A stretch of DNA of 64,000 nucleotides, from sequence record OZ413487.1. One strand, written 5' to 3'. The notes beneath the pieces are model-generated. The model searched no databases, was not told where the DNA came from, and saw only the letters and a list, made by a program, of their open reading frames with translations. The position numbers and the translations under genes were made by a program. Every line of letters starts with the position of its first letter. Position 1 is the stretch's first letter. The DNA comes from a phage. Below, piece after piece: positions 34,467 to 63,461 of the stretch.

Positions 34467-36890
34467 ATGAGCATGTGGTCGTTCGACTTTGAGTCATCCG
34501 GTTTGCTGGAAGACCCAGATCTTTATTATCACTGCGGCCTGTTTAAAGAGCTGAATAAGAACCGTTTTATGCTGTTCCTTCCTCTAAATGACCGCACACA
34601 CTACTCCGAGGAGGATATAGAAAAGGCTAAGAACTTCATTCTGGCAAAGAAAACTCTTTATAAAGATTTTGAAGTTCGCATAGCAGATTTTTCAGAGTTG
34701 GAAGGTTGGCTTACAGGAAATTCTGACTGGTCACCAACAGCTTTGAACTGCCATAACTGCTACAGTTATGACTTTATGCTGATGGAAAGATTATCTGGTA
34801 TTCATTTTGATATGTTCCGTGATCCTAAATGTATGGGGACTATCAACGATCACCAGGTTAACCTGTTTGATACGTTGGCGATGAGCCGAATCTTGTGGCC
34901 TGATCGCCCTTTACCAAAAGGTTGTCCGGACTCTGTATTCAACCCGGTTACTAAGAAAATGCAGCCTGTTGGTCCTCACGGCCTTATGGCATGGGGCTAC
35001 GCCCTTGGTAACCAGAAAGTTCAAATTGATGACTGGCGCGATCTTCCGTTGTGGAAGTATGTGGATCGTGTATTCGAGGACGTTATCATCCAGGAGCTGC
35101 TCTGGAAAGAGCTGGTAGCGGAATCAAAAGGTGTATTCTACGGCAAATCTGACATGCAGAACTTTATGTACGATCCGGCCAAAGAGAAGCCGAAAGGGTT
35201 CAAGAAGATCACCTGGAAGAACGCATTACGTCGAGGCATGCTGCAGCACTTCCTGATGGAGCTGCAGGCCCGTCAGGGTGTATACTTCGACATAGATGGA
35301 GCTATTGCTTTACGTGACCGTTGCGATGCGTGGATGAAAGAAATCGCTGATCGTGTTGAACCACAACTACCTTTAAAAGAGCTGTCAATGTCTCAGCGGC
35401 CCAAGTTCCCTGAAAAGCCGTTTAACCAAGACGGGACAATCTCTAATAATGGTTGGAAATGGTTAAAAGATAAGCTTGGCTATCCTGTAGACATGAGTGC
35501 TTTAGAGTTCAAAGCCCTGCCTAAGCGAGCATTTACCTCTACAGGAGATGTCAGCAAGATGGGGATAAAATGGTGTGAAGAGATGGGCTGCAAAGACCCC
35601 GATAAGATGGCTGATTTCTTGAGAGGCTATATTAAGGGCACCTCCACACCACAACCCTTACCTAAAGAGCTGATGGATCAGGCAATAAGTGATCTGCAGC
35701 AGAAGCGAATGCCTGACTGCAAGATACCTATGAAAATCAGCAATCAGGACGACATCAAGCGATACCTAATCAGTGCTGGTTGGCTCCCAACAATGTGGAG
35801 AACTAAAGATGTAACTAAAGACAGCAAGAAGAAAGCTTTACCTGATGCAGATGTTGATGCACGAGTATATGCATATATGGACGAGCTTTTGGAGTCAGAG
35901 TATTGTGACCTAATTATCAACTTCTGGAACAAAACTGATGCTAAGTTCCAGACAACCGTGCACAAGTTCCGAAGCTTTCCTAACTCCGAAAGGATTAAAA
36001 AGGAAGTATTCGGGAAAATACGTAGAAAAGCCAGGGCACTTATTACTTCTCCGCAACTGAAAGATACGTTTGGACACCTATGCCCAAATCTTGAAAAATT
36101 GAACGGAGAGATGGCTAAAGATATCGTCTTGTGGTTATCATTGCGAAACCGCAGATCGGTCCTTGATCCAATCAAGGAGGATAAGGTTGATACTGGTCTT
36201 CTTAATCACCCACGTTTGAAGATTGACCATAAGCTTCCTGCTAAAAGCTCTGGATTAACAAACACTTCCAGACAGAAACACAGTATTTGTGCAAACATGC
36301 CTAAACCATCTCCTAAAGTAGTTATGGGTAAAGAGATGCGTAGTCTGTGGGGTGTTCCTCCAGGATACTTTGAGATCGGTATTGACGGGTCCAACTTAGA
36401 GCAGCTCATCGGGGCTTGGGGTGCCTTTGAGTTCGACAACGGCTTGTATTATGATGTTGTAAGTAACGGAGACGCACACCAAAACAATGCTGAGGCATAT
36501 ACAAAAGTGGCAGGCAGAGAGGTGTCCCGTAACGACGGTAAACCTATCACGTATGGGGTTATGTACGGGGCACAAAAAGATAAAGTTGCAGATATGCTGG
36601 ACATCTCCCCAGAGTTGGGACAAAGGGTAATCGATGCACTCTGGGATGCCAACCCAGGTCTTAAGGGGCGCAAAGAGGATCTGGAGAAATTCTGGGAAGC
36701 AACAGGTAAGAAGTTTATCTACTCTTTTGATGGTCATGCTATCTGGACCCGATCTAAACACTCTTTACTTAATGCATACCAACAAAATGGCGGTGCATCG
36801 TTGTGTGACTTAGTTGGAATACTCATGCACCACCAGATGGTGAAGCGTGGGTGGTACGATGAAGGTGTTCGTCGTATTATTTATTACCAT
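34467..36890 (+). CDS. family A DNA polymerase (T7 gp5-like), exon 1 (ends at the His codon of the HDE motif)
   Basis: 3'-5' exo motifs (FDFESSGL, YSYDFM), HGLMAWGYALG (compare T7 HALEAWGYRLG), polymerase motif A (GIDGSNLEQL), motif B (RNDGKPITYGVMYG) and QQNGGASLCDL. The reading frame hits a stop two codons after ...IIYYH. Confidence 0.8.
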
Positions 36891-37166
36891 AAATAACATT
36901 GTGGCTTCATAGAGTAATCTATGTCGAATAACCTCTTTAACTGCGGGAAGCCTAAACCTTATGGCAAGGTAATCCGCAACGAAGCGCTCAAAAGAGCGAA
37001 CGCTCAGAGGCCATTCCGAAAGGAAGTAGACCAGCAAGTGCGGTCGAAATGGGAGGATTCCTGTGGTTGCTTATCATAGGAATATGAGATGGTCCGATCC
37101 TACGTGAAAACGTATGGCTATGCACGTAATGGTGCGGGGTAGCTTAACGACCTACCTGAACTATTG
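36891..37166 (+). other. intervening sequence in the DNA polymerase gene; candidate group I self-splicing intron
   Basis: 276 nt with no credible ORF. The 5' exon ends in U (CAU), the insert ends in G (...CUAUUG), and a GUGG near its 5' end can pair with exon CCAU to form P1 with a U-G wobble. Joining the flanks restores IIYYH-DEYQLQV. Confidence 0.6.
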
Positions 37167-62654: not shown

Positions 62655-62924
62655 TTATTCCTCTACAATCTCATACACATCAGGAGTTACAATCAACTCT
62701 TCTCCGTTACCCGGTGCAACAAACACCACCAAACCTTCAGGTGTGTGCTTTTTAGCCATCTCGATAACATCTTCTCGCAGAGCTGGCTCCATCAGATCAA
62801 AACCTTCACCTAGGGCATCACGAACCACCTTCATATAGTCCACTGGTTGTGCTTCAACAATCATGCCTTCAACCAGTCCACAATTTTTGTCTGCCAGCTC
62901 AGTTTGGAATAATTTAATTTTCAT
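62655..62924 (-). CDS. small acidic protein
   Basis: 89-aa ORF. Confidence 0.5.
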   Translation of the reverse strand: MKIKLFQTELADKNCGLVEGMIVEAQPVDYMKVVRDALGEGFDLMEPALREDVIEMAKKHTPEGLVVFVAPGNGEELIVTPDVYEIVEE

Positions 62925-63061
62925 TTAGAGGTCTCCTCAATTATTTGATATTAATAGCCGTAACCTAACACATTAACTACAACTGCGATTGCAAACATAA
63001 TTTCAAAGCATGCAATCTCTACATTTGGGACTAATTTCTTAATCACACCCATTGTAGCACC

Positions 63062-63379
63062 TCATTCTCCAAAGTCAATCTTTACTTTGCCTTTCCCCTT
63101 ACCTTTCTTTCCACCGCATTTAGCCAGCTGACGTGCTGCAACATCTACCATACGGTCAGTTGCCTCGTAAGCATCACTGCCTTTAGCCTTGGCAATAACT
63201 TCTTTTCCAGAATTGTCAAAAATGAACGCCATAACTTCCTGGTGATCATTTTCAACTTTTACACTCACACGTGCATAGTTGGCAGAGGGATGCAAACGCT
63301 CCAACTTAGACATTTTGTGGGAAATGAAAGACACCATACCTTCAGTGATTTCTACGTTGCCAGTGATTTCAATTTGCAT
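63062..63379 (-). CDS. hpf: ribosome hibernation-promoting factor homologue (HPF / YfiA / RaiA family, short form)
   Basis: MQIEITGNVEITEGM...KLERLH...VSVKVEN...DAYEA.D..VD.AARQL.K aligns with the short bacterial HPF pattern (E. coli HPF begins MQLNITGNNVEITEALREFV). Confidence 0.6.
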   Translation of the reverse strand: MQIEITGNVEITEGMVSFISHKMSKLERLHPSANYARVSVKVENDHQEVMAFIFDNSGKEVIAKAKGSDAYEATDRMVDVAARQLAKCGGKKGKGKGKVKIDFGE

Positions 63380-63461
63380 AACGTGTTCCTTTTAAAGAAG
63401 AGGGAACCGAACCCTCTTTGAAAACAATGATACTAAATCTGAAGCGTTGTGTCAACAGTTT

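What the first reader, a model, noticed from the sequence alone, without database searches (positions are those of the whole stretch)
63062..63379. Phage-encoded ribosome hibernation factor homologue among early-type genes
The 105-aa product aligns along its length with short-form HPF / YfiA proteins and has a Lys/Gly-rich tail. A phage copy could silence host ribosomes, protect ribosomes during takeover, or retune translation toward phage mRNAs.
Basis: partly seen in the sequence, partly recalled or inferred. Interest (0 to 1): 0.6.

Follow-up and report, generated by a model that had tools for sequence, protein, structure and literature searches.

The report
Known rV5 phage hibernation-factor homologue
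This is a real phage copy of the bacterial ribosome hibernation factor HPF, but it was annotated in phage rV5 in 2006 and described and tested in 2019, so only its function during infection is still open.

Summary
The ORF is real: 63062..63379 on the minus strand, 105 aa. It is a true member of the HPF/YfiA (Pfam S30AE) family, with Pfam E=1.8e-12. [quoted passage not shown]

The window is an rV5-like coliphage (Vequintavirus). The protein is 100% identical to rV5 ORF144, annotated in 2006 as "sigma 54 modulation factor" with its own sigma70 promoter. Mizuno et al. 2019 listed it as a phage HPF and expressed it in E. coli. They found no stable presence in high-salt 70S/100S fractions and no effect on 100S. 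The finding is correct but already known.

What I add:
- It derives from short HPF (37-45% identity), not RaiA (21-28%), and sits on a long isolated branch.
- It is under strong purifying selection (pN/pS 0.03-0.12) and is kept at the same position in a divergent rV5-like lineage (64% identity).
- Both lineages replace near-invariant cellular residues, including the helix-2 lysine (K80 to V/T), R17, T53, H55 and R33.
- Both carry a conserved basic tail about 8-10 residues longer than HPF's.

Best guess, unproven: a weak, reversible, RaiA-like occupant of idle host ribosomes made early in infection.

The parts
63062..63379 (-). hpf-like CDS, 105 aa plus stop; equals rV5 ORF144 / ABI79209
   Evidence: ORF listing. 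Pfam PF02482 above the gathering cut-off. 100% identical to DQ832317 ORF144.
63113..63379 (-). Residues 1-89: folded S30AE core (strand 2-7, helix 13-29, strands 33-42, 47-55, 60-67, helix 70-89)
   Evidence: AF2 model with core pLDDT about 90 or more. The top 36 Foldseek PDB hits are all HPF/RaiA/pY, with rmsd 1.1 A to 4hei and 6h4n_x.
63065..63112 (-). Residues 90-105: Lys/Gly-rich C-terminal tail (GKKGKGKGKVKIDFGE; the basic stretch starts at C88), predicted disordered, about 10 residues longer than E. coli HPF
   Evidence: pLDDT below 50 for residues 91-105. No counterpart in HPF. Window vs L006 shows 5 synonymous and 1 non-synonymous change in the tail. The tail is basic and of similar length in the divergent lineage P0004.
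63427..63455 (-). Sigma70-type promoter TTGACA-17-TATCAT (rV5 'P144')
   Evidence: 11/12 consensus match. Such matches number 18 in the window against 1.4 expected. Conserved in 10 Vequintavirus loci, and the TTGACA -35 hexamer is also present in the divergent lineage L002. Annotated as promoter P144 in DQ832317.
63380..63420 (-). Predicted 5' leader with a 7-bp hairpin (63398..63418) and an AAGGA Shine-Dalgarno (63387..63391)
   Evidence: Sequence. Fold of -9.9 kcal/mol but z=-0.68, so not better than shuffles. The hairpin is absent in L002. Its role is unproven.
63051..63078 (-). Second promoter-like site TTGACT-16-TG-n-TACAAT, embedded in the last hpf codons (I101-D102-F103 = ATTGACTTT)
   Evidence: Both hexamers are conserved across Vequintavirus loci while the spacer varies. 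Predicted independently in phage Gotham.

Best explanation
This is the known HPF homologue of rV5-type coliphages (rV5 ORF144). It is a copy of the gammaproteobacterial short hibernation-promoting factor, taken up long ago and now fully adapted to the phage genome. It is transcribed from its own near-consensus sigma70 promoter, so probably by unmodified host RNA polymerase soon after infection (inferred). The protein keeps the HPF fold and three of the four conserved basic residues on helices 1 and 2 (K25, R28, R83), plus K87 and K91. It therefore most likely still docks where HPF and RaiA dock, in the tRNA/mRNA channel of idle 30S/70S ribosomes (inferred). Both phage lineages have replaced several residues that are near-invariant in cellular homologues and that contact 16S rRNA, uS9 or E-site tRNA: K80 to V/T, R17 to V, T53 to F/R, H55 to F, R33 to S/T. 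They have also added a conserved, flexible, strongly basic tail about 8-10 residues longer than HPF's. I infer weaker, salt-labile, easily reversed binding. The tail would run along the E-site/mRNA-exit path towards the RMF site, as the RaiA extension is thought to do. The net effect would be RaiA-like: idle host ribosomes are parked and shielded as 70S monomers, in competition with host HPF/RaiA/RMF. It would not drive 100S dimers or shut translation down.
For: Identity: Pfam, NCBIfam and PDB sequence matches. The AF2 fold with 36 of the top 36 PDB hits being HPF/RaiA/pY. 37-45% identity to Enterobacterales HPF against 21-28% to RaiA.

Functional gene: pN/pS is 0.03-0.12 within the genus. The tail shows 5 synonymous to 1 non-synonymous change. 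A syntenic 64%-identical copy exists in a divergent lineage, with synonymous sites saturated (pS 0.81) and pN 0.25. It is the best conserved of 10 neighbouring genes.

Contact residues: K25, R28, R83, K87 and K91 are kept. K80 is K in 132 of 136 cellular sequences but V/T in the phage; R17 is R in 124 of 136 but V in the phage; T53, H55 and R33 are also changed. Residue roles come from PMC4889938, bioRxiv 10.1101/2025.10.07.680626 and 10.1101/382572.

The RaiA extension is thought to reach the RMF site (PMC7913689).

Promoter.

Published experiment: expression in E. coli left ribosome profiles unchanged, did not alter 100S, and the protein was not retained on high-salt-washed ribosomes (PMC6375957). 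That fits weak binding without a dimerising role.
Against: No ribosome binding has ever been shown. The only experiment found none in 70S/100S fractions, and its authors list genuine loss of binding as one possible reason. The tail's path on the ribosome is pure inference; no complex could be modelled here. Early expression rests on consensus promoter matches, not on transcript data. The cellular comparison set is dominated by Enterobacterales sequences. Basic C-terminal extensions also occur in some cellular short HPFs (P0135, P0136), so the tail is not uniquely viral.
Confidence: 0.5

Rival explanations
1. It is a canonical hibernation factor. It binds like host HPF and, with host RMF, converts ribosomes to silent 100S dimers, or otherwise blocks initiation. 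The effect would be host shut-off, or putting the infected cell into stasis.
For: It is clearly HPF-derived rather than RaiA-derived. It keeps K25, R28, R83 and K87. It has an early-type promoter.
Against: Expression in E. coli did not change 100S levels or 70S profiles, and the protein was absent from 100S fractions (PMC6375957). The helix-2 lysine is lost: in S. aureus HPF the K84A/R87A double mutant abolishes dimerisation but not binding (PMC4889938). The terminal K93/H95 contacts of E. coli HPF are replaced by a longer tail, which by analogy with RaiA would clash with RMF. Silencing ribosomes early would work against a lytic phage's own protein synthesis.
Confidence: 0.15
2. It has taken on a new role and no longer binds the ribosome. 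The dsRBD-like fold plus the basic tail would bind another RNA or protein, such as phage mRNA, tRNA or a host defence or stress factor.
For: Negative MS result for ribosome fractions, with the protein present in lysate. Five or six near-invariant family positions are replaced in both phage lineages. It sits on a long isolated branch: in 1.84 billion representatives only one hit falls below 1e-10. It scores far below the HPF equivalog cut-off, 55.8 against 125. Weaker fold hits are dsRNA-binding domains.
Against: The best-conserved parts between phage and cellular proteins are the family hallmarks on the ribosome-facing elements: the N-terminal MQxxITG-N-VEIT, K25-L-E, the D69-x-Y71 motif, and R83-Q-L-x-K87. 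In S. aureus HPF all four basic residues had to be mutated to abolish binding. The high-salt wash and growing cells used are poor conditions for detecting hibernation factors, as the authors themselves note.
Confidence: 0.25
3. It is a passenger gene picked up from a host, with no function for the phage.
For: No phenotype has been reported. Deleting hpf or yfiA in E. coli is reported to cause no strong cellular defect (introduction of PMC4889938).
Against: It is present in 118 phage records at 94% identity or more. pN/pS is 0.03-0.12. It is retained at the same position in a lineage whose synonymous sites are saturated, and it is the most conserved of 10 neighbours. It has a dedicated conserved promoter. 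Its GC and GC3 match its neighbours.
Confidence: 0.03

Closest known systems
E. coli / Enterobacterales short HPF (YhbH; NCBIfam NF007780; PDB 2rql, 6h4n)
   Same: Same fold, rmsd 1.1 A. 37-45% identity over residues 1-87. Same N-terminal strand motif, the K-L-E of helix 1, D-x-Y, and R-Q-L-x-K of helix 2. The 106-aa phage variants even restore 'TGNNVEIT' exactly.
   Different: Scores 55.8 bits against the 125-bit equivalog cut-off. K80, R17, T53, H55 and R33 are replaced. The tail is 10 residues longer and Lys/Gly-rich, in place of ...KDKLKQH with its K93/H95 contacts. It is phage-borne with a sigma70 promoter. No effect on 100S was seen in the one published test.
E. coli RaiA (YfiA / protein Y; NF007654)
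   Same: Same fold and presumably the same binding site. Both have a C-terminal extension beyond HPF, and RaiA's is thought to reach the RMF site and block 100S formation. This is the closest functional analogy.
   Different: Only 21-28% identity and 17.6 bits against a 158-bit cut-off. The RaiA tail is about 26 residues past K87 with net charge -4 and an acidic end. The phage tail is 18 residues past K87 with net charge +4.
rV5 ORF144 / 'viral HPF' of Mizuno et al. 2019 (PMC6375957)
   Same: The same protein, 100% identical.
   Different: Nothing differs. This report adds residue-level, selection, promoter and divergent-lineage analysis only.
HPF-like proteins of jumbo phages (Cronobacter phage GAP32 K4F6Q6, Escherichia phage PBECO4 L7TII8; phrog_8990)
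   Same: The same S30AE fold encoded by virulent enterobacterial myoviruses.
   Different: Only 19-22% identity over the structural alignment, and a separate PHROG family. The window protein belongs to phrog_12469 (E=7.5e-71) and hits phrog_8990 only at 1.5e-06. This points to independent acquisitions. Mizuno et al. place GAP32 elsewhere in the tree.

Membership tests
HPF/YfiA superfamily (Pfam PF02482 Ribosomal_S30AE; TIGR00741) | Sequence match above the curated cut-off | tested here: met
   PF02482 scores 48.3 bits against 23.7. TIGR00741 scores 45.9 against 40.9.
HPF/YfiA superfamily (Pfam PF02482 Ribosomal_S30AE; TIGR00741) | [quoted passage not shown] | tested here: met
   The AF2 model gives E2-7, H13-29, E33-42, E47-55, E60-67, H70-89. 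The top 36 PDB fold hits are all family members. This is a prediction built on a family alignment, not an experimental structure.
HPF/YfiA superfamily (Pfam PF02482 Ribosomal_S30AE; TIGR00741) | Four conserved basic residues on helices 1 and 2 (S. aureus K27, R30, K84, R87; PMC4889938) | tested here: inconclusive
   Three of four are kept (K25, R28, R83). The K84/K80 equivalent is V in this phage and T in P0004, against K in 132 of 136 cellular sequences.
HPF/YfiA superfamily (Pfam PF02482 Ribosomal_S30AE; TIGR00741) | Binds the 30S decoding channel of vacant ribosomes | not testable with these tools
   The only published test was negative under high salt in growing cells, and its authors call it inconclusive (PMC6375957).
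Short HPF (YhbH) equivalog, NF007780 | Equivalog-level sequence score (125 bits or more) | tested here: not met
   55.8 bits. At most 45% identity to any cellular HPF.
Short HPF (YhbH) equivalog, NF007780 | About 95 aa with the short C-terminus ...KDKLKQH, whose K93 contacts E-site tRNA and whose H95 stacks on G693 | tested here: not met
   105 aa. The tail is CGGKKGKGKGKVKIDFGE with no terminal His.
Short HPF (YhbH) equivalog, NF007780 | Promotes the 90S to 100S conversion together with RMF | not testable with these tools
   The published expression test saw no effect on 100S.
RaiA (YfiA/pY) equivalog, NF007654 | Equivalog-level sequence score (158 bits or more) | tested here: not met
   17.6 bits. 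21-28% identity.
RaiA (YfiA/pY) equivalog, NF007654 | C-terminal extension beyond HPF that reaches the RMF site | tested here: inconclusive
   An extension exists, 10 residues beyond HPF against 18 for RaiA, but with opposite net charge. Whether it reaches the RMF site could not be modelled.

The most novel reading that the evidence does not exclude
The rV5-type protein is an anti-hibernation and ribosome-shielding factor rather than a hibernation factor. Its weakened core contacts would let initiation factors and phage mRNA displace it easily. Its conserved basic tail would occupy the E-site/anti-SD path, exclude RMF, and protect the 16S 3' end from YbeY/RNase R. That would keep ribosomes of starved gut E. 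coli as usable 70S monomers for the phage.
Probability: 0.25. Interest if true: 0.6.

Novelty: already known. Interest (0 to 1): 0.25.

Why it matters
How lytic phages handle the host's ribosome pool is poorly understood, especially in slow-growing or starved cells where ribosomes are hibernating. A phage-adapted HPF maintained under strong selection in a whole genus of therapeutic-candidate coliphages is a ready-made probe for that question. The existence and identity of the gene are already published. Only its function remains open, and nothing computed here settles it. The phage-specific substitutions (V16, F54, V/T80) and the conserved tail give concrete mutants to test.

Tried and rejected
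1. The word-indexed homologue search with the single protein returned only the phage clade. I needed a mixed alignment and the exhaustive HMMER search to reach cellular relatives.

2. P0122 ranked second in the exhaustive search (1160 aa, 8 matched stretches). It is a PPC-repeat protein and a spurious hit.

3. The 5' leader hairpin looked like a terminator or stabiliser, but it folds no better than shuffles (z=-0.68) and is absent from the divergent lineage. I make no claim for it.

4. Several GenBank records label the 89-aa downstream gene as a second 'sigma 54 modulation factor'. It has no S30AE or any other Pfam match. The label traces to a shifted annotation in APCEc02.

5. The truncated tails in APCEc02 and Murica come from single-base indels in G/A runs in two isolated records. 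I read these as probable sequencing errors, not natural tail-less variants.

6. The search for related loci with the diverse alignment failed because no stretch was conserved enough. With the single protein it found only two IMG/VR contigs.

7. Literature searches found no follow-up experiments on the phage HPF after 2019. Polikanov et al. 2012 could not be read.

8. 'Recent transfer', as suggested in PMC6375957, does not fit the data. Identity to any cellular HPF is at most 45%, composition matches the phage, and a syntenic lineage has saturated synonymous sites.

Full report
**Observation.** The ORF exists exactly as stated: 63062..63379 on the minus strand, ATG start, 105 aa. An AAGGA Shine-Dalgarno lies 8 nt upstream. 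The similarity to hibernation factors is not chance.
- Pfam PF02482 (Ribosomal_S30AE) matches residues 3-88 with E=1.8e-12, 48.3 bits against a gathering cut-off of 23.7.
- TIGR00741 passes its cut-off, 45.9 against 40.9.
- The best solved-structure match is E. coli HPF, E=5e-12, aligned 1-89.
- The tail (CGGKKGKGKGKVKIDFGE) is Lys/Gly-rich and has no counterpart in HPF.

**Whose gene it is, and prior knowledge.** The region is 98-99% identical to rV5-like coliphages of the genus Vequintavirus. The protein is 100% identical to rV5 ORF144. The 2006 rV5 record already calls it 'sigma 54 modulation factor' and annotates a 'Sigma70-type promoter; P144' in front of it. 118 phage records carry it at 94% identity or more, under names such as ribosome hibernation factor, RaiA or hpf.

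Mizuno et al. 2019 (PMC6375957) list rV5 ABI79209 (105 aa) as a viral HPF, with HHpred probability 99.96%. They expressed it in E. coli from pBAD24. MS detected it in crude extract but not in high-salt-purified 70S or 100S particles, and 100S levels did not change. They named three possible reasons: the wrong growth phase, loss during salt washes, or real loss of binding. They also speculated that viral HPF might compete with host homologues and prevent dimers. Mathieu et al. 2020 repeat the observation 'as already described'. I found no later experimental work. The finding is therefore correct but already known.

**Family placement and fold.** The protein is closer to short HPF than to RaiA.
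- Identity is 37-45% to Enterobacterales HPF and 21-28% to RaiA.
- NCBIfam gives 55.8 bits for the HPF model and 17.6 for RaiA. Both fall far below the equivalog cut-offs of 125 and 158.
- An AlphaFold2 model built on 37 aligned sequences has mean pLDDT 83.5. The core is at about 90 or more and residues 91-105 are disordered. [quoted passage not shown]
- All 36 Foldseek PDB hits with E of 0.001 or less are HPF, RaiA or pY. The rmsd is 1.1 A to Vibrio HPF (4hei) and to E. coli HPF inside the 100S ribosome (6h4n_x).

The model does depend on a family alignment.

**What differs from cellular factors.** I aligned the two phage lineages with 136 cellular HPF/RaiA sequences. About 115 of these are Enterobacterales, so the sample is biased. 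I compared positions that published structures and mutants identify as contacts (S. aureus numbering verified). Numbering below is E. coli HPF. "Phage" is the window protein and "P0004" is the divergent lineage described in the next section.

| Position (role, where published) | Cellular sequences | Phage | P0004 |
|---|---|---|---|
| K26 (16S phosphates) | K in 129/136 | kept (K25) | kept (K25) |
| Q29 (16S phosphates; S. aureus R30) | K 64, Q 57, R 11 | R28 | R28 |
| R83 (16S rRNA) | R in 132/136 | kept | kept |
| K87 (16S rRNA) | K in 125/136 | kept | kept |
| K91 (16S rRNA) | K in 127/136 | kept | S |
| D69, Y71 (family motif) | D and Y each in 135/136 | kept | kept |
| K80 (helix 2; S. 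aureus K84) | K in 132/136 | V | T |
| R17 | R in 124/136 | V | V |
| T53 (contacts m2G966) | T in 114/136 | F | R |
| H55 (pairs with the uS9 C-terminus) | H or N | F | F |
| R33 (E-site tRNA) | R or H | S | T |
| N4 | N in 119/136 | E | D |

In S. aureus HPF the K84A/R87A double mutant abolishes dimerisation but not binding. Only the quadruple mutant abolishes binding. The E. coli HPF C-terminus (K93 to the E-site tRNA, H95 stacking on G693) is replaced by a tail 10 residues longer with net charge +4. The HPF tail has +2 and the RaiA tail -4. Some cellular short HPFs also carry basic extensions (P0135, P0136), so the tail is unusual but not uniquely viral.

**Selection and history.** The exhaustive search of 1.84 billion representatives found only one relative below 1e-10. 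This is P0004, 103 aa and 64-65% identical. The next hit is at 2.5e-7.
- P0004 is encoded at the syntenic position in a divergent rV5-like phage, assembled as contigs of about 125-137 kb. That phage is not in the phage collection: only about a third of the 8-kb region aligns to Vequintavirus, at about 75% identity.
- Between the two lineages, synonymous sites are saturated (pS 0.81) while pN is 0.25. hpf is the best conserved of ten neighbouring genes, 64% against 29-60%.
- Within Vequintavirus, the core has pN/pS of 0.03-0.12. The tail shows 5 synonymous to 1 non-synonymous change between the window and L006. The tail is therefore selected at the protein level.
- GC (42.5%) and GC3 (0.39) match the neighbouring genes.
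- Other Vequintavirinae hosted by Klebsiella, Salmonella, Pectobacterium and Cronobacter match the polymerase region but show no HPF hit.

Together this indicates one old acquisition at the base of the Vequintavirus/P0004 group, followed by divergence and long-term retention. It does not fit the 'relatively recent' transfer suggested in 2019. Jumbo phages GAP32 and PBECO4 carry only distantly similar S30AE proteins (19-22% identity), which are probably independent captures.

**Expression signals.**
- A TTGACA-17-TATCAT promoter lies at 63455..63427 on the minus strand.
- Matches of 11/12 or better number 18 in the window against 1.4 expected. They fall into a plus-strand block (1.5-50.5 kb), with two isolated minus-strand matches among them at 9.2 and 19.7 kb, and a minus-strand block (57-64 kb).
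- The promoter is conserved in all ten Vequintavirus loci examined, and its TTGACA -35 hexamer is also present in the divergent lineage.
- A second conserved promoter-like site, TTGACT-16-TG-n-TACAAT, is embedded in the last hpf codons. Its hexamers are fixed while the spacer varies. In the divergent lineage the equivalent promoter lies after the stop codon, yet the tail still ends K-W-D-Y, compared with K-I-D-F here.

'Early' expression is a reasonable inference from these signals. It is not demonstrated.

**Mechanism.**
- Shown: family membership, the predicted fold, purifying selection on core and tail, the phage-specific substitutions, and the conserved promoter.
- Inferred: the protein still docks in the decoding channel of idle ribosomes but binds more weakly. 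The tail extends along the E-site/mRNA-exit path towards the RMF site, as the RaiA extension is thought to do. It thereby keeps idle host ribosomes as protected 70S monomers, given that hibernation factors shield 16S rRNA from YbeY/RNase R. It would compete with host HPF/RaiA/RMF rather than make 100S dimers.

This reading fits the absence of any change in ribosome profiles or 100S levels, and the loss on high-salt washing. I give it about 0.5. The rivals are a new non-ribosomal role (0.25), canonical HPF/100S or shut-off activity (0.15), and a functionless passenger gene (0.03, contradicted by the selection data).

**Verdict.** This is a real, correctly interpreted and well-supported feature that is already in the literature and in GenBank annotation. 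Part of the proposed experiment has been done, with a negative and inconclusive result. What I add is incremental: HPF rather than RaiA ancestry, shared substitutions at near-invariant contact positions, a selected basic tail, a divergent syntenic lineage, an old rather than recent acquisition, and the promoter architecture. Interest is low to moderate, because the function of phage HPFs remains an open and testable question.

Noticed in passing
window 36881-37116 (+): A group I intron (Rfam RF00028, 64.7 bits, E=4e-14) starts right at the end of the 809-aa DNA polymerase ORF (34467..36896). The rV5 RefSeq record lists 'DNA polymerase (x2)' there, so the polymerase gene appears to be split by an intron.
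   Followed up: partly
window 1-64000, both strands: There are 18 near-consensus sigma70 promoters (11/12 or better) against 1.4 expected by chance. Twelve are on the plus strand (1.5-50.5 kb) and four on the minus strand at 57-64 kb, with two more minus-strand matches at 9.2 and 19.7 kb.
   Followed up: partly
window 62951-63052 (-): A 33-aa hydrophobic ORF (MGVIKKLVPNVEIACFEIMFAIAVVVNVLGYGY) lies 9 nt after hpf, with a GAGGTG Shine-Dalgarno. It is annotated in several relatives and absent from the divergent L002 lineage. The -10 of the embedded promoter overlaps its ATG, so it would have to be translated from the hpf transcript.
   Followed up: partly
GenBank relatives (MT884008-11, OR062525/30; KR698074 APCEc02_082; MN850xxx): Annotation errors have propagated. 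hpf is labelled 'ATP-dependent protease La type I' in some records. The unrelated 89-aa downstream gene (window 62655..62924, no Pfam hit) is labelled 'sigma 54 modulation factor' in others.
   Followed up: yes
phage collection records MG0656xx: Eighteen records named 'Campylobacter phage' (host C. jejuni) are rV5-like coliphage genomes 97-100% identical in this gene. The host assignment looks wrong, or the preparations were contaminated.
   Followed up: no
L002-L004 (Logan contigs ERR6997038_58, ERR4623478_391, SRR25571739_58736): A divergent rV5-like phage lineage with the same gene order but only 29-64% protein identity in this block. It is not in the phage collection, and NCBI attributes its HPF (P0004) to 'Escherichia coli'. 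It is probably an undescribed species or genus.
   Followed up: partly
L007, L012 (phages V18, nomo); L008, L009 (APCEc02, Murica): Two kinds of length polymorphism occur. The 106-aa variants carry an extra Asn that restores the cellular 'TGNNVEIT'. Two records have tails truncated by 1-nt indels in G/A runs, probably sequencing errors.
   Followed up: yes
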